64,000 bases of DNA from contig DATDWL010000012.1 of assembly GCA_035289645.1 (NCBI GenBank), positions 1,818-65,817 on the forward strand, in the 5' to 3' direction. This document shows positions 7,706 to 60,868 of this stretch, piece by piece. Position numbers and translations under genes: made by a program. Below the pieces are notes generated by a model. It saw only the letters and a list, made by a program, of their open reading frames with translations, did no database searches and was not told the origin of the DNA. Each line of letters opens with the position of its first letter. Position 1 is the stretch's first letter. This stretch comes from Candidatus Peribacterales bacterium (GTDB taxonomy: Bacteria > Patescibacteriota > Gracilibacteria > Peribacterales > Peribacteraceae).

Positions 7706-8221
7706 ATGCGCGCATGGCACGCCCCTCTGGAACAAACAGGTTTCACATTGTTGGAGCTTCTTATGGTTGTGGGACTCATTGCAATTCTTGCGGGAATCGT
7801 CATTGTCGCTATCAATCCCACGAAACAACTTGGGAGCACGCGGGATGCAAAACGACGCGCAGAGGTGAATTCCATCCTCAATGCGATTTCGCAATATGCC
7901 ATTGATCACGGTGGCACATTCCCTTGCGATCCTTCGGGATCCCCTTGCGTCGATTCCACGTGGCGCATGCTGGGGAACCAAAGCACCGGATGCGATGAAG
8001 ATTCAACGTGCAATGTCTCCGGCATTGCATCCGCCTGCCTCTTTCTCCGATCGCTCTCCGGCACGTATGTAACAACAATGCCGGGAGATCCGCGTTACGG
8101 CAGCGGCAATGCGCTCTCCGCGAACAGCAAATCTCTTTATCTCGTACAAACCGTCGGAGATCGCATCACCGTACAAGCATGCAAAGCGGAAGTTGATGGG
8201 ATAAGTTCAGTGAGCCGCTAG
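7706..8221 (+). CDS. Type IV pilin / pseudopilin (prepilin-type N-terminal cleavage-methylation domain)
   Basis: MRAWHAPLEQTG|FTLLELLMVVGLIAILAGIVIVAI is the class III signal (G/FTLxE plus hydrophobic helix). ATG at 7706 chosen because the longer ORF (7622) overlaps the preceding gene. Confidence 0.75.
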   Translation: MRAWHAPLEQTGFTLLELLMVVGLIAILAGIVIVAINPTKQLGSTRDAKRRAEVNSILNAISQYAIDHGGTFPCDPSGSPCVDSTWRMLGNQSTGCDEDSTCNVSGIASACLFLRSLSGTYVTTMPGDPRYGSGNALSANSKSLYLVQTVGDRITVQACKAEVDGISSVSR

Positions 8222-8238
8222 TACACTATACTGTCCCC

Positions 8239-9003
8239 ATGGAACGGAAAGGCATTCTCGGCGTACCAATCGATATTCTTTCCAAAGATGATGCCATTCG
8301 CCACGTCACGGCTTTCTGCAGAAGCCAAGGACAATTCCACATTGCTACACCGAATCCGGAAATGCTGGTGGAGGCCACAAAAAATCCTCAATTCAAAAAT
8401 GTTCTCCAGCGCACGTCGCTGAATATTCCAGATGGTATAGGACTCGTATGGGCAATGAAACGAGGGCAATGCGGAGCGACTCAACCCACCCGCATCACCG
8501 GCACCGATCTCCTCCAAAGAATCGCATCATCAGAATCACGTTTGTGTCCTCCGGAAAAAATATTTTTACTCGGTGCTGCCCCCGGCATCGCAGAGCGAGC
8601 TGCCGACGCATTGCGTGTGCTGAATCCTTCAATCAAAGAAATCGGTGTATGGAGTGGATCGCCGAGTAAAGCGGATGAAGAAGAAATTGTTCGCCGCATC
8701 AATGCCTTCTCCCCAACACTCCTCTTTGTTGCATTTGGCGCCCCGGCGCAGGATCTTTGGATTGCACGCAATCTCACAAAGCTGCCATGCATTAAAATCG
8801 CCATGGGAGTGGGCGGAGCGTTCGATTTTCTCGCAGGGAAGAGGAGAAGAGCACCACAATGGATGCAGAAAGGCGGCATCGAATGGCTCTGGAGACTCGC
8901 CTGCGAGCCGCGGAGAATCGGGAGGATCTTGAATGCCGTGATTGTTTTCCCGTTGCTTGTTCTCACGGAAAAAAAACGTCATCGTGAGGATTGCTCACGA
9001 TGA
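8239..9003 (+). CDS. WecB/TagA/CpsF family glycosyltransferase
   Basis: ILGVPIDILSKDDAIRHV..HIATPNPEMLVEA..QDLWIA.. matches the family pattern. Length 254 aa. Confidence 0.8.
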   Translation: MERKGILGVPIDILSKDDAIRHVTAFCRSQGQFHIATPNPEMLVEATKNPQFKNVLQRTSLNIPDGIGLVWAMKRGQCGATQPTRITGTDLLQRIASSESRLCPPEKIFLLGAAPGIAERAADALRVLNPSIKEIGVWSGSPSKADEEEIVRRINAFSPTLLFVAFGAPAQDLWIARNLTKLPCIKIAMGVGGAFDFLAGKRRRAPQWMQKGGIEWLWRLACEPRRIGRILNAVIVFPLLVLTEKKRHREDCSR

Positions 9004-55312: not shown

Positions 55313-56476
55313 TTATTCAATCAAACATGCGGCGCTGCAACCGTCACCATCGATCATATTGCCATCATCGCACGTCTCTGGAGCTTCGAGGATTCCATTC
55401 CCACAGGAAGCAGCGTCGACAGGAGCGGATTCCGCGGAAGAAGATGATGCATCGGGAAGTGTTGGAACAATAATCTGGCACATGCTCGGTGATCCCGCGC
55501 ACTCCCAACCAGATTCAATGGTGCACGCAACAGAGCAACCATCATCCGCCACGGTATTGCCATCATCGCATGTTTCGGTACCGCGCATCGTTCCATCGCC
55601 ACAGACTGGCGCAGGATCATCGGCAACATTGCGAGGATCGGTTTCACCCGCATCAACAACACCATCATGGTCAGCGTCTTCGGCGCCATCGAGCGCTCCG
55701 CCGCCATCCGTATCAGCACTCTGCGGATTTGTTTCCCCGGCATCCACGATGCCATCGCCATTGAGGTCTTCGACGCCGTTATGCAAACCATCCTGATCGC
55801 TGTCAAGACAGGACACGCGGTACACTGCATCTGCATCGCCGAGTGAAGTGCCATCGACCATCACGTAGTAACGCTTACTGCCATGGAGCTGCATCGGCGA
55901 GCCATCGGCTTCCTTTGTATCGAGTGCTCCGTACTGTTCTCCTGTAACTGCAAGTTCGGCAGGAGAAAGCCAAAATCTACCATCGAAGAGTTCTCGACCG
56001 GTTTTTCCTGCCTTCCTATTATTGGTTTCTTGATTTGAGTATTCATATCCCCATGAACGGATGCTGCCAAACGTGTGCGCCATCGTAACATCGATAGCGG
56101 GCGCAATGTCATCGGGACAATCAAAAATCACGTGTGCATCGGCCGGTGCGATAAATCCGCGTGCAGCTTCTGCCTTCGTGAAGTAGTGGATCTGAATTCC
56201 TCCTTGTTCTCCAATAAGTTGCGCAGAGAAATCAGGACTTGGTTGCTCAATTGGTTCGAGTGCCAGCGTTGGGACAAAGAGTGATTGTACCGATAGCGCT
56301 TCGGCAACGGGAGTGGATGACTCCCCGCCAACCTGTGCCACCTCGGCTGTTCCTTGTCGGAGATAGAGGAAAACGACAATACCAATAAGTGCTACGAGGA
56401 GGATGACCTCACACACGACTCGTACGACTGGGAATGGTTCATCATCCTGGAATGTTGGAGTGCTTGATTCGAGCAT
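55313..56476 (-). CDS. N-terminally anchored protein with thrombospondin type-3-like Ca-binding repeats and two Cys-rich CxDG(N) repeats
   Basis: DSDQDGLHNGVEDLNGDGIVDAGETNPQSADTDGGG..DADHDGVVDAGETDP. CGDGTMRGTETCDDGNTVADDGCSVACTIE and CGNGILEAPETCDDGNMIDGDGCSAACLIE. Confidence 0.6.
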   Translation of the reverse strand: MLESSTPTFQDDEPFPVVRVVCEVILLVALIGIVVFLYLRQGTAEVAQVGGESSTPVAEALSVQSLFVPTLALEPIEQPSPDFSAQLIGEQGGIQIHYFTKAEAARGFIAPADAHVIFDCPDDIAPAIDVTMAHTFGSIRSWGYEYSNQETNNRKAGKTGRELFDGRFWLSPAELAVTGEQYGALDTKEADGSPMQLHGSKRYYVMVDGTSLGDADAVYRVSCLDSDQDGLHNGVEDLNGDGIVDAGETNPQSADTDGGGALDGAEDADHDGVVDAGETDPRNVADDPAPVCGDGTMRGTETCDDGNTVADDGCSVACTIESGWECAGSPSMCQIIVPTLPDASSSSAESAPVDAASCGNGILEAPETCDDGNMIDGDGCSAACLIE

Positions 56477-56494
56477 AAAAAGAGTTGGAAAAAA

Positions 56495-57079
56495 TTAACG
56501 GGAATGGAGTGAGCGCACTCTTGTATAAAGGAGCGCACCACAGGTGAAAGTGAAACTGAAAATTGCAGGAATCGCAAGAGGCAGTCCTGTTGGAGCAAGC
56601 GGCGCGGCGCGGTGAACGGATTCCATTGTCTCGATTGGAGGAGCTCGACGCACGGCATGGGGAACCGGTGTCGGCAATGGAGTCTCCTCTTCTTCGACGA
56701 GTGGACGATCCGGAATACGCACCGCTCGGTTATCGCTCTCTGGAAGATTTTCATCGCTTAACATTCTCGGCCGCGCGATATTATTACTCTGAAATACTTC
56801 CGCACGCGGATCATCATGGACATCACCCGGCGTTCCTGCAGGATGCGGCGTATGACCTTGTATTGTAGAACTGGGTAAAGACGGACGAAGAGGAATCAAC
56901 GCATCGGACCCAGGCGAAGCAGGGGCAGAAGCGGAAGAAGACGAAATAGAACTCGATGATCCGCCGGTTTCTTCTTCATCACCCTGCAAAAATTGCCCGG
57001 GTGTGATGTACGCAAAGGCACTTTCTGCTGAAGAAAACGCAGTAAACATGACGAGGGCGAAACGTAGGAAAATAATCAT
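56495..57079 (-). CDS. Secreted Pro/Ser-rich protein with C-terminal LAPTG + hydrophobic + basic (sortase-type) signal
   Basis: Signal peptide MIIFLRFALVMFTAFSSAESAFA. C-terminus LAPTG-LPLAIPAIFSFTFTCGALLY-TRVRSLHSR. Confidence 0.5.
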   Translation of the reverse strand: MIIFLRFALVMFTAFSSAESAFAYITPGQFLQGDEEETGGSSSSISSSSASAPASPGSDALIPLRPSLPSSTIQGHTPHPAGTPGDVHDDPRAEVFQSNNIARPRMLSDENLPESDNRAVRIPDRPLVEEEETPLPTPVPHAVRRAPPIETMESVHRAAPLAPTGLPLAIPAIFSFTFTCGALLYTRVRSLHSR

Positions 57080-57145: not shown

Positions 57146-58708
57146 CTAAAGTGAATAGGTAACTCCTCTCTCCGGCATCACAATATCCGCGGTCATGGAT
57201 TTTTTCATGCGCTCCATCAGCGCAAGCATCCCCTGCTCTTCCCCGTGCACAAGGAATAATTTTTTCACCCCTTGGATAGCGGTGATGTACGAATCAAGAT
57301 CACGCATATCCGCATGGCCGGAGTACGCGTTGATGTAGACGGTTTCCGCACGCTTGCGATACTCTTGATCGAAGATGCGAACGGTGGAAATGGATTTTTC
57401 GATGATGCGGCGCCCGAGCGTGTTTTCCGCCATGTAGCCGACAGCGAGCACCGTGGATTTTGGATCTTCGATGTAATTTGTCAGATGGTGGCGGATGCGG
57501 CCGCCTTCGCACATGCCGGAGCCCGCCATAATGATCATGGGGCCGGAATACGTGTTCAATTTTTTACTCTCCTCCACGGAGGTCGTATATCGCACAAGTG
57601 AAAACTGGAATGGATTATGGGCGCGCGAGAGGAATTGTTCGTACATCGCGCGGTCGTAGCACTCCGGATGCTTCATAAAAATTTCCGTCACGCGGGAGGC
57701 GAGGGGCGAATCAATGATGATGGGAACCTCGGGAATGTTCTTCTCGTCCCAGAGGAGATGCAGATCGTAGAGAATCTCCTGCGTTCGTTCGAGTGAAAAC
57801 GCAGGGATCAGCACCTTTCCTCCCCGCGCGACAGTCCGTTGTATGACTTCTGCAAGGCGGTGTTTTGCGGTGAGAACATCCTCGTGGAGACGATTACCAT
57901 ACGTGCTCTCGCAAATGAGCATATCGACGGGCGGCATCGGTTCTGGATCGCGAATAATGGGAAGAGTTGCTCGACCAAGATCGCCACTGAAGCCAATACG
58001 AAGAACTGGTACGTCATGCTGAGTGGAGCGACCCTGAGCCGCGTCGAAGGGGAGCGAAATCGAAGCATCTCGCATTAACATCGATGCTGAATCTCCTGAT
58101 CCTTGCGACGTGCTTCGACTACGTTCCGCCCCGCTCTGGGGGGCTTCACTTCGCTCAGCATGACGTACATGACGTAATTGATCTATCTCCAATACCACCA
58201 TCGCAGCGCCAAGCACATGCCCTGCATCTAAAAATTTTGCTTTGATGCCGGGTAATACCTCAAACCATTCACTGTAATTCTTGCCAACAAAAAGTTCTGC
58301 GCAGTTCGCTGCATCTTCTTGCGTGTAGAGCGGCCCCTCGCACGCCATCATCGTATCGGCACAGTGCTTGCGGAAAAATTCCTCATCTTTCTCCTGCAGG
58401 TATCCCCCATCCTGCAACATAACGGGGGCAAGATCCTTCGTCGCATAGGTGCAATAGATTGGACCGCGATACCCGCGCTTATGGAGAACGGGGATGCGTC
58501 CCACATGATCCATATGGGCATGTGTGAGGATAACAGCATCGATATCCTTCGATGGATCGAATACAAATGTTGAATTTTTTTCCGCAGACGCTTTGCGGCT
58601 TCCTTGAAACAATCCGCAATCAAGGAGAATGCGATGCGCGCCGATCTGGAGTTCGTGGCAAGAGCCTGTTACCTCCCGGGCCGCACCGTGGGAAATTAGC
58701 TTCATCAC
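57146..58708 (-). CDS. MBL-fold beta-CASP RNA-metabolising hydrolase (RNase J/CPSF-like) carrying an in-frame ~53-aa insertion
   Basis: GAAREVTGSCHEL, ILTHAHMDHVGRIP, DAGHVLGAA, FSGDLGR, ESTYGNRLH, C-terminal GHAD.. motifs. Confidence 0.85.
   Translation of the reverse strand: MMKLISHGAAREVTGSCHELQIGAHRILLDCGLFQGSRKASAEKNSTFVFDPSKDIDAVILTHAHMDHVGRIPVLHKRGYRGPIYCTYATKDLAPVMLQDGGYLQEKDEEFFRKHCADTMMACEGPLYTQEDAANCAELFVGKNYSEWFEVLPGIKAKFLDAGHVLGAAMVVLEIDQLRHVRHAERSEAPQSGAERSRSTSQGSGDSASMLMRDASISLPFDAAQGRSTQHDVPVLRIGFSGDLGRATLPIIRDPEPMPPVDMLICESTYGNRLHEDVLTAKHRLAEVIQRTVARGGKVLIPAFSLERTQEILYDLHLLWDEKNIPEVPIIIDSPLASRVTEIFMKHPECYDRAMYEQFLSRAHNPFQFSLVRYTTSVEESKKLNTYSGPMIIMAGSGMCEGGRIRHHLTNYIEDPKSTVLAVGYMAENTLGRRIIEKSISTVRIFDQEYRKRAETVYINAYSGHADMRDLDSYITAIQGVKKLFLVHGEEQGMLALMERMKKSMTADIVMPERGVTYSL
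58009..58168. mobile_element. MITE-like palindromic element inserted in frame in the beta-CASP gene
   Basis: Perfect 15-bp terminal inverted repeats GTACGTCATGCTGAG (58009-58023) and CTCAGCATGACGTAC (58154-58168). Interior carries CCTGAGC-CGC-GTCGAAGG (58033-58050). Confidence 0.7.
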
Positions 58709-59329: not shown

Positions 59330-60868
59330 ATGAAAGCAGAATCTCATCAGGCAACACAAGGAGAAGATCTAAGCCGCTCATCACTCAGCATTCTCTGCTG
59401 CGTGTTTGTTCTTCTTACATCCTTCTTCACATACTTCTTCCACTACGATCAGCCCCAAGCGCCATTCTGGGACGAAAACTACTACATTACGGATGCCGAG
59501 AGGATTTTGAATGGCGTGTTTTTCATGCAGATTCATCCACCGCTCGGCAAATTACTCATTGCTGCCGGAGAGGCAATATTTGACCCCAATGAGAGTGATG
59601 CGCAGTTTTTAGAAACAGAACATGCGGGGGAATTCCCCCAAGATTTTTCGTTTGTTGGATACCGATTTTTTCCCGCACTCCTCGGATGGCTCACCGTTCC
59701 CCTCTTCTTCCTGTGCCTCCTGCTTTTAACGCGGAATCCCCTTGTCGCAACGCTCCTCTCGTTCCTCATTATTTTTGATAATGCACTCCTCGTCCATAGC
59801 CGGGGCGCCATGCTGGATGCTCCGCTGCATTTCTTCTTTGTGCTCACTTGCCTCCTGTTTCTCCTCCTTGTTCATACGAAGAACCGGAGCAAAATTTTCC
59901 TGTGGCTCTCCGGCGGCCTTGGCATCAGCATCGGTCTTGCTGTAGCAACAAAGATGAACGGAGCTATCCTCTTCTTGTTCTTCCCTGCACTCCTCTGGCA
60001 CCTGCGAAGAGAATGGAAATCCGCACTTGCAACATGCGTTCTTAGCGGCAGCGCACTTTTGATTGCATTCATGGGCGTCTGGTATGTACACCTCAGCCGC
60101 ATGGAAATCATTCGTCCTGCACTGCGGGATAGCGGTTGGTACACGGCTTCGGAAGAATATAAGGAAATTCTGCAGCAAGGCGCTCAACGCTCGCTCCTCG
60201 CATTCCCCATCATGCTTCGCGATCATCTGCAGTACGCGCCATTCTACAATCAAGGAATCCCCAAGTTGGATCTTTGCAAACCCGATGAGAACGGCAGCCC
60301 TGTGTTTCTCTGGCCGTTTGGCGTCAGCACCATTAACTATCGGTGGGCGTCGGCTGGTGAAAATACGTATCGCTACCTTTACCTCGTTCCAAATCCTGCC
60401 ATATGGTTTGTGGGACTTATGGGAATTCTTCTCTCTGCCGCATTCCTCCTCTCCCCTCTCTTCGGAGCGAAGCGCTCATTGTATGTTGATCGTGAACGAG
60501 CATTCATTGGCACTGTATTCCTGATGATCTATATGGGATACGTCGCAACGTTCAGCATGATGGACCGCGTCCACTTCCTCTATAGCTACTTCCCGGCGCT
60601 CATCATAAGTTTCCTACTCTTTGGCATCGTCTTCTCCTCCGTACGGGCAATCGGCTCCTTCCACTTCACAGAGGAGCGAAAAACCCTCGTCGCCATGTTC
60701 CTTGCCTGCCTCATTTTCCTCTGCTTCCAAATCTATCGCCCATTCACCTATTACGAACCGATCACGAATGATGCCGTAAAAAATCGATCGATCCTCAGGC
60801 TCTGGAACCTCCATTGCGTTGGGTGCGAAAAGCCAAGCTCAATCGTGCGACATCAGTGTGATGCATGA
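59330..60868 (+). CDS. GT39/PMT-family (dolichyl-phosphate-mannose-protein mannosyltransferase-like) membrane glycosyltransferase
   Basis: More than 10 TM helices. First-loop motif FWDENYYITDAERIL..IHPPLGKLLIA resembles the DE-containing loop 1 of the PMT/ArnT-type GT-C fold. Confidence 0.7.
   Translation: MKAESHQATQGEDLSRSSLSILCCVFVLLTSFFTYFFHYDQPQAPFWDENYYITDAERILNGVFFMQIHPPLGKLLIAAGEAIFDPNESDAQFLETEHAGEFPQDFSFVGYRFFPALLGWLTVPLFFLCLLLLTRNPLVATLLSFLIIFDNALLVHSRGAMLDAPLHFFFVLTCLLFLLLVHTKNRSKIFLWLSGGLGISIGLAVATKMNGAILFLFFPALLWHLRREWKSALATCVLSGSALLIAFMGVWYVHLSRMEIIRPALRDSGWYTASEEYKEILQQGAQRSLLAFPIMLRDHLQYAPFYNQGIPKLDLCKPDENGSPVFLWPFGVSTINYRWASAGENTYRYLYLVPNPAIWFVGLMGILLSAAFLLSPLFGAKRSLYVDRERAFIGTVFLMIYMGYVATFSMMDRVHFLYSYFPALIISFLLFGIVFSSVRAIGSFHFTEERKTLVAMFLACLIFLCFQIYRPFTYYEPITNDAVKNRSILRLWNLHCVGCEKPSSIVRHQCDA

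What the first reader, a model, noticed from the sequence alone, without database searches (positions are those of the whole stretch)
58009..58168. Palindromic MITE-like element inserted in frame inside a conserved beta-CASP RNase gene
The beta-CASP gene (57146-58708, minus) is conserved on both sides of a ~160-bp segment. That segment is bounded by perfect 15-bp inverted repeats, GTACGTCATGCTGAG and CTCAGCATGACGTAC. It translates without a stop as VRHAERSEAPQSGAERSRSTSQGSGDSASMLMRDASISLPFDAAQGRSTQHDV. It sits between the DAGHVLGAA..LEI strand and the FSGDLGR motif, where family members normally have only a short turn. So a DNA-level repeat element appears to have been domesticated or tolerated as a ~53-aa surface loop in a probably essential RNA-processing enzyme. 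Under equal codon usage an open frame of this length has only about an 8% chance. Frame preservation adds another factor of about 1/3. Together these suggest selection.
Basis: partly seen in the sequence, partly recalled or inferred. Interest (0 to 1): 0.7.

Follow-up and report, generated by a model that had tools for sequence, protein, structure and literature searches.

The report
Miniature nuclease-cassette palindrome inside RNase gene
A 160-base hairpin-forming repeat, a stripped-down copy of a small GIY-YIG nuclease cassette that is scattered through these tiny Peregrinibacteria (CPR) genomes, sits in frame in a surface loop of an RNA-processing enzyme and is read through as a floppy 53-residue loop, the same phenomenon long known from Rickettsia palindromic elements.

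Summary
Window 58009-58168 is a 160-bp nested palindrome with perfect 15-bp termini. It lies in frame in a beta-CASP/MBL RNase gene (57146-58708, minus), at a beta-hairpin turn between the AGH and GD metal-ligand motifs.

It belongs to a dispersed repeat family. Its termini (Y-ACGTCATGCTGAGCG ... CGCTCAGCATGACGT-R) match more than 120 loci in many phyla. The exact subfamily recurs in related metagenomic contigs, both intergenic and in frame in PriA, SecA, Fmt and a nucleotidyltransferase.

Two full-length copies (L172, L219) carry a 103-aa GIY-YIG nuclease gene between the same arms, and a Hymenobacter homologue (L012) lies between hairpins with the same termini. The window element is therefore an internal-deletion, MITE-like derivative.

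This matches the CGTC-tagged REP/RPE class (Di Nocera 2013) and the hairpin-ssn-hairpin architecture of Ssn single-strand nucleases (Chenal 2025).

The insert is not selected as a peptide. Its three codon positions are equally conserved, and its fourfold-degenerate sites are 75-94% identical where the host gene's are saturated. AlphaFold models it as disordered.

It is a tolerated selfish element, not a domesticated loop. It is a new member of a known kind, first seen here in CPR bacteria. One thing is unexplained: 30 of 35 internal insertions among 120 orthologues hit this same turn.

The parts
57146..58708 (-). Host gene: a beta-CASP / metallo-beta-lactamase RNase similar to TTHA0252. It is 520 aa from GTG, or 519 aa from the ATG at 58705.
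   Evidence: ORF. Pfam Beta-Casp, RMMBL and Lactamase_B. PDB TTHA0252 E = 2e-85. AlphaFold model pLDDT 85.7 with Foldseek TMt 0.88 to TTHA0252.
58010..58167 (-). The 158-bp miniature palindromic element. It consists of two inverted CGTCAT-tagged hairpin arms and a short loop, read in frame as ..RHAERSEAPQSGAERSRSTSQGSGDSASMLMRDASISLPFDAAQGRSTQHDV.
   Evidence: The arms align at 80-85% to both arms of the GIY-YIG cassettes L172 and L219.
58104..58167 (-). Arm on the gene's 5' side (the 'left arm' of the cassette): TACGTCATGCTGAGCGAAGTGAAGCCCCCCAGAGCGGGGCGGAACGTAGTCGAAGCACGTCGCA. It has a CGTC tag, AT at the start of the stem, a nested GCCCC/GGGGC hairpin, and the inner module GTCGAAGCACGTCGC.
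   Evidence: The inner module was used as the search pattern.
58075..58103 (-). Central loop or spacer. In full-length copies this is where a segment of about 360 bp, made up of the 5'UTR and the GIY-YIG ORF, lies. The motif (T)TAATGCGAG is shared with the 5'UTR and start codon of full-length copies.
58010..58074 (-). Arm on the gene's 3' side (the 'right arm'): TGCGAGATGCTTCGATTTCGCTCCCCTTCGACGCGGCTCAGGGTCGCTCCACTCAGCATGACGTA in gene sense.
58168..58176 (-). A 9-bp tandem duplication of the element terminus (TACGTCATG in gene sense). It adds 3 codons.
   Evidence: repeat D2. Absent from L002, L003 and L004.
58199..58228 (-). Codons for DAGHVLGAAM, the conserved MBL His-motif strand just upstream of the insert.
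57971..57994 (-). Codons for GFSGDLGR, the conserved MBL Asp-motif strand just downstream of the insert.

Best explanation
The segment is a miniature, non-autonomous member of a dispersed family of nested palindromic repeats. Each arm is a CGTCAT-tagged hairpin of the CGTC-REP / Ssn-related-motif type. The full-length form is a cassette, arm - 103-aa single-domain GIY-YIG nuclease gene - inverted arm. The window copy has lost the roughly 360 bp between the arms (5'UTR and nuclease ORF), probably by deletion at the short repeat TGCGA.

An ancestor of this Peribacterales clade acquired a copy in the solvent-exposed beta-hairpin turn between the AGH and GD metal-binding motifs of the beta-CASP RNase. 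Only a copy in the one stop-free frame could survive in this gene, so it is translated as a disordered, Ser/Arg/Glu-rich loop of about 53 aa that the enzyme tolerates.

The sequence is kept or renewed as DNA rather than as protein. Copies at this site exchange modules with copies elsewhere, are replaced by other subfamilies, or are deleted, leaving atypical scar-like turns.

**Shown:** family membership, the cassette relationship, dispersal, presence/absence at the site, nucleotide-level rather than codon-level conservation, and loop placement.

**Inferred:** that the cognate GIY-YIG nuclease, by analogy with Ssn enzymes that cut single-stranded DNA a few bases upstream of such hairpins, drives spread and turnover through cleavage followed by recombination or repair.
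For: The hosts include Hymenobacter, Chloroflexota, Armatimonadota, Acidobacteriota, a cyanobacterium and Peribacteria. My rough estimate of the chance expectation for this 22-base pattern in that collection is about 2. The copies share the modular architecture GTCATGCTGAGCG-(GNAGC)n-CGAAGCATCTC-stem-loop and its mirror. The unconstrained base before GTC is C or T in 88% of 248 arms.
2. **The same subfamily elsewhere.** The inner-module pattern retrieved about 13 related copies.
   - Only two of them, L167 and L149, are in beta-CASP genes.
   - Others are in frame in an NTP_transferase (L203), in PriA (L166, L191/L160), in Fmt (L195) and in SecA (L161).
   - L156, L144 and L145 have no spanning ORF and are probably intergenic.
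3. **Full-length copies.** L172 9458-9937 and L219 carry a Pfam GIY-YIG ORF (E = 5.9e-18) between the same arms. A 43%-identical GIY-YIG gene in Hymenobacter (L012) is flanked by the same termini.
4. **Derivation by deletion.** The window arms align to both cassette arms at 80-85% identity. L144 keeps the first 9 codons (FWVYIL) fused directly to the right arm, an independent deletion derivative.
5. **Polymorphism at the site.** The insert is present in the window, L002, L003 and L004. It is absent in P0003 (91% identical outside the insert), P0007 and P0011. Other palindromes occupy the site in P0006 (a different CGTCAT-type dimer) and P0008.
6. **Conservation pattern.** Fourfold-degenerate sites in the host gene are 29-45% identical. 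In the element they are 75-94% identical, with no codon periodicity.
7. **Copies at different loci.** The copy in the L203 nucleotidyltransferase gene is 89% identical to the L003 beta-CASP copy. The beta-CASP copies are only 64-82% identical to one another. Modules are mosaic between copies.
8. **Structure.** Only residues 188-230 have pLDDT below 50, and the fold is otherwise intact.
9. **Literature.**
   - CGTC-tagged REPs include Rickettsia RPE-4 and RPE-6, form head-to-head dimers, occur in frame inside genes, and have no known transposase (PMC3733652).
   - Ssn GIY-YIG nucleases are flanked by CGTCAT hairpin repeats and cut single-stranded DNA just upstream of them (PMC11893778).
Against: - Only one copy exists in this 64-kb window, and there is no GIY-YIG gene in it. 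Activity in this particular genome is therefore unproven.
- The termini do not match the published degenerate SRM search motif.
- Whether the L172 nuclease belongs to cd10448 (Ssn proper) could not be tested. Its nearest solved relatives are UPF0213 proteins at E of about 1e-9.
- No target-site duplication or target consensus was found, so the insertion mechanism is unknown.
- Nucleotide-level conservation could in principle reflect a function of the hairpin in this mRNA.
- The extreme concentration of insertions at this one turn (30 of 35) is not fully explained by tolerance alone.
Confidence: 0.8

Rival explanations
1. Domesticated loop. The inserted peptide has acquired a function in the RNase, such as partner binding or regulation, and is kept by selection on the protein.
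For: The insert is in frame and free of stop codons in four orthologues. The same turn carries inserts in 30 of 120 orthologues.
Against: - Codon positions are equally conserved, and amino-acid identity in the insert (49-73%) is lower than in the flanking gene (75-83%).
- The inserts at this turn are unrelated in sequence and length, and one is a simple tandem repeat.
- The closest relative lacks the insert.
- The segment is predicted to be disordered.
- The same peptide occurs in PriA, SecA, Fmt and a nucleotidyltransferase.
Confidence: 0.05
2. Functional nucleic-acid structure. The hairpin is kept inside this mRNA or gene because it regulates the gene, for example as a site of autoregulatory cleavage, a translational pause, or a recombination or replication signal. 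Different palindromes would be recruited convergently to the same place.
For: - Nucleotide-level conservation is far above that of the host gene's synonymous sites.
- The fold z-score is strong.
- Several different palindromes occupy the same turn in close relatives.
- The window has no other such element.
Against: - The same conservation is seen in copies in unrelated genes and in intergenic DNA, so it is a property of the family and not of this gene.
- Non-palindromic inserts also occupy the turn (L222, L221).
- Many close relatives do without any insert.
- No Rfam family matches.
Confidence: 0.08
3. Site-specific homing. Elements of this family are actively targeted to this position of the beta-CASP gene, so the four orthologous copies and the other subfamilies at the site are independent recent insertions and not one old insertion that has been maintained.
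For: - 30 of 35 internal insertions fall at this turn.
- At least three different CGTCAT-type subfamilies occupy it (window type, L127, L223).
- The elements are far less diverged than the host genes' synonymous sites.
- The L203 copy is closer to the L003 copy than the orthologous-site copies are to each other.
Against: - The junctions differ by small indels, and no conserved target sequence or duplication is seen.
- Empty alleles in the clade lack the canonical xE-xG-K turn, which looks like a deletion scar and argues for an old insertion followed by loss.
- Other kinds of insert use the same turn, which points to tolerance.
- The family inserts at many other places.
Confidence: 0.12
4. Assembly chimera, intein or intron. 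The segment is not really part of the expressed gene.
For: None beyond the unusual appearance of the segment.
Against: - The same insert is at the same site in independent assemblies from different samples.
- The exact window protein is recorded on 4 contigs.
- At 53 aa with no intein motifs, it is too small to be an intein.
- There is no Rfam intron hit.
- The frame is preserved in every intragenic copy.
Confidence: 0.01

Closest known systems
Rickettsia palindromic elements (RPEs; Ogata et al. 2000 from my own knowledge; RPE-1, RPE-4 and RPE-6 as discussed in PMC3733652)
   Same: Both are palindromic repeats of roughly 100-150 bp, dispersed in a small genome of a host-dependent bacterium. 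Both are inserted in frame in many conserved genes and are translated as extra surface segments that the protein tolerates. RPE-4 and RPE-6 end in the same CGTC tag.
   Different: The host is a different phylum (CPR/Peregrinibacteria). The sequence subfamily is different. Here the parent cassette with a GIY-YIG gene was found directly, together with empty and filled sites. Copy density appears much lower, at one copy in 64 kb.
CGTC-tagged REP superfamily (Di Nocera, De Gregorio & Rocco 2013, PMC3733652)
   Same: Both have a terminal CGTC/TGTC tag, a stem that begins with AT, and head-to-head dimers that can fold into one long hairpin. Both are mostly intergenic with some in-frame intragenic copies, including copies in replication and repair genes (PriA here). 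No transposase is known.
   Different: The published units are short, with 8-9 bp stems and 4-5 nt loops. Here each arm is about 65 nt with nested hairpins and tandem G-A mismatches. The family was not reported from CPR, Chloroflexota, Armatimonadota or Acidobacteriota.
Ssn single-strand-specific GIY-YIG nucleases and their NTS/SRM hairpin repeats (Chenal et al. 2025, PMC11893778)
   Same: Both involve a single-domain GIY-YIG gene of about 100 aa flanked on both sides by inverted hairpin repeats that start with CGTCAT (NTS = CGTCATTCCCGCG...GCGGGAATC). Both have many solo repeats elsewhere in the genome. That paper noted the IS-like architecture.
   Different: The termini here (CGTCATGCTGAGCG...CGAAGCAY) fail the published degenerate SRM motif. 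Membership of the protein in cd10448 is untested. That paper does not describe gene-less deletion derivatives or in-frame intragenic copies; those are the new points here.
REPINs and RAYT (Bertels & Rainey 2011, PMC3116915)
   Same: Both are inverted doublets of hairpin repeats that behave as a replicating unit and are associated with a single-copy nuclease or transposase gene flanked by the same repeats.
   Different: REPINs have a GTAG tag and a Y1 (HUH) transposase. Here the tag is CGTC and the protein is a GIY-YIG nuclease.
Classical bacterial MITEs (e.g. Correia elements; reviewed in PMC10969869)
   Same: Both are small, have terminal inverted repeats, are non-autonomous, arise by internal deletion of a longer element, and are sometimes found in frame within genes.
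   Different: No target-site duplication is seen. The parent has no DDE transposase. The whole element is a nested palindrome, not only its ends.

Membership tests
CGTC-tagged REP superfamily | An unpaired CGTC (or TGTC) tetranucleotide at the outer end of each hairpin. | tested here: met
   The window arms read aCGTC-ATGCTGAG. In 248 arms from 124 family members, the base before GTC, which the search did not constrain, is C in 50% and T in 38%.
CGTC-tagged REP superfamily | The stem starts with A-T residues, and the units are arranged as head-to-head dimers. | tested here: met
   CGTC is followed by AT in all copies. The two arms are inverted with their tags outward.
CGTC-tagged REP superfamily | A short unit with an 8-9 bp stem, a 4-5 nt loop and a CCA-like tail. 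| tested here: not met
   The arms are about 65 nt with nested hairpins, and the closing half, AGCAY, lies 15-30 nt away. No CCA tail is present.
Ssn / SRM system | The repeat matches the published degenerate SRM motif HGTCWYN(0-2)YYVSBRHN(0-5)WNVSBRGN(0-2)RNCYNB. | tested here: not met
   A regular expression built from the motif matches the Neisseria NTS. It matches neither the window termini nor the family consensus, and it has 0 hits in the window.
Ssn / SRM system | A single-domain GIY-YIG gene of about 100 aa flanked 5' and 3' by inverted copies of the repeat. | tested here: met
   Seen in L172, L219 and L012. GTCATGCTGAG lies 80-104 bp upstream and CTCAGCATGAC 74-114 bp downstream. Pfam GIY-YIG E = 5.9e-18.
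Ssn / SRM system | The nuclease belongs to CDD family cd10448 and cuts only single-stranded DNA next to its hairpin. | not testable with these tools
   No CDD library was available. NCBIfam gave nothing useful. The nearest PDB relatives are UPF0213 proteins. Testing cleavage needs biochemistry.
Rickettsia-type palindromic element phenomenon (RPE-like) | A dispersed palindromic repeat found in frame in several unrelated conserved genes. | tested here: met
   The repeat is in frame in the beta-CASP gene, PriA, SecA, Fmt and an NTP_transferase, always in the same reading frame.
Rickettsia-type palindromic element phenomenon (RPE-like) | The encoded segment lies on the protein surface, away from the fold core. 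| tested here: met
   The insert extends a beta-hairpin turn. Only residues 188-230 have pLDDT below 50, and the rest superposes on TTHA0252 with TMt 0.88.
Rickettsia-type palindromic element phenomenon (RPE-like) | Sequence homology to the named RPE families. | not tested
   No RPE sequences were compared. Only the shared CGTC tag is known, from PMC3733652.
Classical MITE | Terminal inverted repeats together with a target-site duplication. | tested here: not met
   Terminal inverted repeats are present. No direct repeat flanks any of about 12 copies, and no target consensus emerges.
Classical MITE | An internal-deletion derivative of a longer, gene-carrying element with the same ends. | tested here: met
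   The window arms align to the L172 and L219 cassette arms. L144 is an intermediate that keeps 9 codons of the ORF.
beta-CASP RNase (host gene) | An MBL domain followed by Beta-Casp and RMMBL domains, with the conserved His and Asp motifs. | tested here: met

The most novel reading that the evidence does not exclude
The arm - GIY-YIG - arm cassettes (Ssn-type) may be true selfish mobile elements that generate gene-less miniature copies able to enter coding sequence. If so, the resident hairpin turns its site into a hot spot where nuclease-induced breaks drive replacement, module swapping and excision. This would supply the missing 'transposase' for CGTC-REP/RPE elements. It would also explain why one turn of this gene has been hit again and again. 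The filled, empty and replaced alleles found here at 91-95% protein identity would make that directly testable.
Probability: 0.35. Interest if true: 0.7.

Novelty: new member of a known kind. Interest (0 to 1): 0.45.

Why it matters
- **Extends a known oddity to a new group.** Selfish palindromic DNA written into essential proteins has been a Rickettsia and Wolbachia phenomenon. These data extend it to ultra-small CPR bacteria, where mobile repeats are thought to be scarce.
- **Links the miniature repeat to its parent.** In natural sequences, the miniature palindrome can be tied to a GIY-YIG nuclease cassette of the recently described Ssn type. How CGTC-tagged REPs and RPEs spread is still unknown. 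The deletion intermediates and the filled, empty and replaced alleles found here are the material needed to test whether the nuclease drives spread.
- **Practical points.**
  - The repeat variant found here escapes the published SRM search motif, so surveys based on that motif undercount these repeats.
  - The repeat-encoded peptides (RHAERSE..RSRSTSQG..AQHDV) are annotation noise in proteins from metagenomes.

Tried and rejected
- **Rfam.** A scan of 57900-58300 at E up to 10 gave only chance snoRNA hits. It is not a known RNA family.
- **Other copies in the window.** blastn, a terminus search with 3 mismatches, the GTCANNNYGAGC pattern and a window-wide inverted-repeat scan found none.
- **Peptide search.** A profile search of the big protein database with the four insert peptides (A1) returned nothing, not even the window's own protein. 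I treat this as a limit of the tool (word index, low complexity), not as evidence of absence. The question was answered by DNA pattern scans instead.
- **Literature search by exact sequence.** Searching for exact terminus strings found only unrelated primers.
- **Intrinsic coding-friendliness.** I tested whether the family is inherently free of stop codons. It is not. Open-frame frequency is close to that of shuffles, and only 2 of 124 copies from other phyla are spanned by an ORF. One of them (L113) was inspected and looks spurious.
- **Target-site duplication or target consensus.** None was found.
- **Family assignment of the GIY-YIG protein.** NCBIfam gave nothing useful.
- **All inserts at this turn being palindromic elements.** Rejected. 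L222 is an AAATTCC-type tandem repeat, and L221 is GC-rich without CGTCAT ends.
- **ATGCGAG as pure ORF remnant.** I first read the ATGCGAG in the short forms as simply the ORF start. It is also the first bases of the right-arm stem (GCGAG/GCGAC). The deletion-at-TGCGA model is therefore plausible but not proven.
Full report
**1. The observation**

The + strand of the window reads GTACGTCATGCTGAG at 58009-58023 and CTCAGCATGACGTAC at 58154-58168. The inverted repeat extends to 23 nt at 87% complementarity. A second inner pair lies at 58051-58074 / 58104-58127, so the whole 160 bp is a nested palindrome.

As RNA, in gene sense, it folds at -78.2 kcal/mol (z = -5.9). As DNA it folds with z = -4.5. 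None of 200 shuffles did as well in either case.

The segment lies inside ORF 57146-58708 on the minus strand. Pfam finds Lactamase_B, Beta-Casp (E = 1.9e-41) and RMMBL. The best solved relative is the Thermus RNase TTHA0252 (E = 2e-85).

The terminus is tandemly duplicated: CATGACGTA x2 at 58159-58176.

**2. Relatives of the host gene**

The gene belongs to Candidatus Peregrinibacteria/Peribacterales, judging by the names that sources give to its homologues.

In an alignment of the 120 best homologues, most are about 465 aa. They have a tight turn (LEI-xE-xG-K-xxRIGFSGDLGR) where the window protein carries its insert.

DNA of eight close orthologues was fetched. The findings were:
- A homologous element with the same termini, (T/C)ACGTCATGCTGAG...CTCAGCATGACGT(A/G), lies at the same site in L002, L003 and L004.
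- These come from independent assemblies of different samples, so the insert is not a chimera.
- With the insert masked, the closest relative of the window protein is P0003 (91% identical), and it has no insert.
- P0005 carries the element. It is 95% identical to P0008, which carries a different palindrome, and 93% identical to P0007, which carries nothing.
- P0006 carries a 66-bp palindrome with variant ends (GTGTCATCCCGAGCG...CGCTCAGGGTGACAC). Its 91% relative P0011 is empty.
- The empty alleles P0003 and P0007 lack the canonical xE-xG-K turn (DQQS, DATPRLF). This looks like a deletion scar.

**3. What is being conserved**

In the flanking gene, identity between carriers at codon positions 1, 2 and 3 is about 0.83/0.89/0.47. 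Fourfold-degenerate sites are 29-45% identical, which means they are saturated.

Inside the element, the three positions are equally conserved (0.64-0.87). Fourfold-degenerate sites are 75-94% identical. Amino-acid identity (49-73%) is below that of the rest of the protein.

The insert is therefore not evolving as a protein-coding sequence. It is conserved, or renewed, as DNA.

**4. The repeat family**

There is no second copy in the 64-kb window.

The hosts include:
- many Hymenobacter genomes;
- Chloroflexota;
- a Fimbriimonadales genome with many copies;
- Acidobacteriota;
- Calothrix and Mucilaginibacter;
- one Peribacteria genome (L061).

All copies share a modular mirror architecture: GTCATGCTGAGCG-(GNAGC)n-CGAAGCATCTC-stem-loop and its reverse complement. 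Variants change the triplet after GTCA together with its partner (GTCAcccTGAG..CGAAGgggT, GTCAtccTGAG...). The base before GTC was not fixed by the search, yet it is C or T in 88% of arms.

In these genomes the elements are almost all intergenic. Only 2 of 124 are spanned by an ORF, and the one inspected (L113) looks spurious. The L061 copy fills the gap between two co-directional genes. Open frames are about as frequent as in shuffled controls.

**5. The exact subfamily and its parent**

I scanned metagenome contigs with the inner module shared by the four orthologous copies, GTCGAAGCNCGTCGCAAGG. This returned 91 stretches, and about 13 share extended similarity with the window element.

Two of them are beta-CASP orthologues. 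The others are elsewhere:
- in frame in an NTP_transferase gene (L203);
- at the same position of two PriA orthologues (L166, L191/L160);
- as half elements in Fmt (L195) and in the C-terminal linker of SecA (L161);
- with no spanning ORF, so probably intergenic (L156, L144, L145).

Every intragenic copy is read in the same frame, RHAERSE..RSRSTSQG..AQHDV.

Two loci hold the full-length form. L172 9458-9937 and L219 have the same left arm, then a short leader, then a 103-aa ORF (MRTFWVYILRCGDGSYYIGVTGNLEERI...REKQLQGWSRKKKEALI) that is a Pfam GIY-YIG domain (E = 5.9e-18), then the same right arm.

Further support for the parent-derivative relationship:
- The window arms align to both arms of these cassettes at 80-85% identity over 65-79 nt. 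The roughly 360 bp between the cassette arms is missing from the window element.
- L144 is an intermediate that keeps the first nine codons fused to the right arm.
- In Hymenobacter sp. BT190 (L012), a 43%-identical GIY-YIG gene is flanked by hairpins with the same termini. The association between nuclease and repeat therefore holds across phyla.

**6. Turnover**

Copies are mosaic.
- L002, L004, L144, L155 and L195 share one left-arm module.
- The window, L003, L203, L166 and L191 share another.
- Right-arm variants group the window with L002, and L003 with L004.

The copy in the L203 nucleotidyltransferase gene is 89% identical to the L003 beta-CASP copy. The beta-CASP copies are only 64-82% identical to each other. 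This fits a multi-copy family that recombines or converts. It explains why the element is far less diverged than the host gene's silent sites.

**7. Placement in the protein**

An AlphaFold2 model built from 65 orthologues has mean pLDDT 85.7 and pTM 0.86. The only segment below 50 is 188-230, which is the insert. It lies between strand 168-174 (..VVLEI) and strand 235-239 (RIGFS). The model superposes on TTHA0252 with TM 0.88 and on CPSF73-type enzymes.

The insert extends a beta-hairpin between the AGH and GD metal-ligand motifs and is predicted to be disordered.

**8. Comparison with what is known**

Di Nocera et al. 2013 (PMC3733652) defined CGTC-tagged REPs. Their features are:
- a CGTC/TGTC tag;
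- stems that start with AT;
- head-to-head dimers that can fold as one hairpin;
- members that include Neisseria dRS3 and Rickettsia RPE-4 and RPE-6;
- in-frame intragenic copies, often in replication and repair genes;
- no known transposase.

Chenal et al. 2025 (PMC11893778) showed that single-domain GIY-YIG proteins (Ssn, cd10448) are flanked by CGTCAT-hairpin repeats (NTS/SRM). These proteins bind the repeats only as single-stranded DNA and cut a few bases upstream. The authors remarked that the repeat-gene-repeat layout looks like an insertion sequence, without showing mobility.

The element here fits both descriptions in tag, orientation, dimer form and gene association. It differs in three ways:
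- The arms are long and nested.
- The termini fail the published degenerate SRM motif.
- The CDD family of the nuclease could not be checked.

The closest analogy for the in-frame behaviour is the Rickettsia palindromic element.

**9. Mechanism**

Shown:
- The segment is a miniature derivative of a GIY-YIG cassette.
- The family is dispersed.
- The insert is polymorphic at this site.
- It is conserved at the DNA level.
- It sits in a tolerated surface loop.

Inferred:
- The cognate nuclease nicks single-stranded DNA beside the arms.
- Repair or recombination then copies, swaps or removes elements.
- A resident hairpin makes its own site prone to further events.
- The open frame is survivorship in a probably essential gene.

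Unexplained:
- Among 120 orthologues, 30 of 35 internal insertions of 6 aa or more fall in this one turn. They include at least three different CGTCAT-type subfamilies (window type, L127, L223), another palindrome (L126), a GC-rich segment (L221) and a tandem repeat (L222).
- Structural tolerance plus turnover at an occupied site is my preferred reading. Active targeting is not excluded.

**10. Verdict**

The 'MITE-like element tolerated in a loop' reading is right in outline. 'Domestication' or selection on the peptide is not supported.

It is a new member of a known kind, the CGTC-REP / RPE / Ssn-associated hairpin repeats. It is of moderate interest because of the CPR host, the direct link between the miniature element and its nuclease cassette, and the striking hot spot.

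Noticed in passing
window 58159-58176: The element terminus is tandemly duplicated (CATGACGTA x2, which is TACGTCATG x2 in gene sense), adding three codons (L-R-H-V-R-H). L002 has a related partial duplication at the other end (GACGTACGTCCC). These may be footprints of cleavage and repair, or of slippage at the base of the hairpin.
   Followed up: partly
L203, L166, L191/L160, L195, L161 (metagenome loci): The same element subfamily lies in frame in an NTP_transferase, PriA (two orthologues, same site), Fmt (C-terminal domain) and SecA (between the scaffold domain and the SEC-C zinc motif). It is always in the host gene's orientation and always in the RHAERSE..RSRSTSQG..AQHDV frame, even though the opposite orientation also has one open frame.
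   Followed up: partly
L172 9458-9937; L219 (minus strand, about 7880-8370); L012 1450-1925: Full-length cassettes: a GIY-YIG nuclease ORF of about 100 aa flanked by the same inverted hairpin arms. They occur in Peribacterales-like contigs and, at 43% protein identity, in Hymenobacter sp. BT190.
   Followed up: yes
beta-CASP orthologues P0005, P0013 (after core position 23) and P0026, P0036 (after core position 152): 8-aa inserts PSTGSGQV / SMSSGQD / HSTSSGQA / PSTSSGQG occur at two other positions. They look like peptides encoded by yet another short repeat.
   Followed up: no
L126 (P0008), L222 (P0043), L221 (P0026), L223 (P0024), L220 (P0010), at the same hairpin turn: The same turn holds unrelated inserts in other lineages:
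- a GCGATTAGCG/CGCTAACCGC palindrome (L126);
- an AAATTCC-type tandem repeat (L222);
- a GC-rich segment (L221);
- another CGTCAT/TGTCA-type dimer (L223);
- a decayed copy of the window type with the same left junction as L003 (L220).
   Followed up: partly
window 55313-57079 and 59330-60868; L001, L003, L125, L128: Gene order is conserved around the RNase: a PMT-family glycosyltransferase lies divergently upstream, cysteine-rich DUF4215/CLIPPER repeat proteins lie downstream, and the ribosomal protein operon (L3, L4, L23...) follows.
   Followed up: no
L220 1253-1960: A LAGLIDADG_2 homing-endonuclease-like ORF lies about 800 bp upstream of the beta-CASP gene in one orthologous locus.
   Followed up: no
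window 58348-58378 / 58577-58607: A 31-nt inverted repeat at 71% complementarity, with 198 nt between the arms, lies inside the 5' part of the same gene. It is weak and probably due to chance.
   Followed up: no
family-wide (L005-L124): The outer hairpin of each arm can be drawn as ATGCT-GA-GC-GNA-GC-GA-AGCAT, that is, with tandem G-A mismatches and a GNA triloop, like the very stable d(GCGAAGC) mini-hairpin. Variants change the triplet after GTCA together with its partner (ccc/ggg, tcc/gga). This covariation was not counted formally.
   Followed up: no
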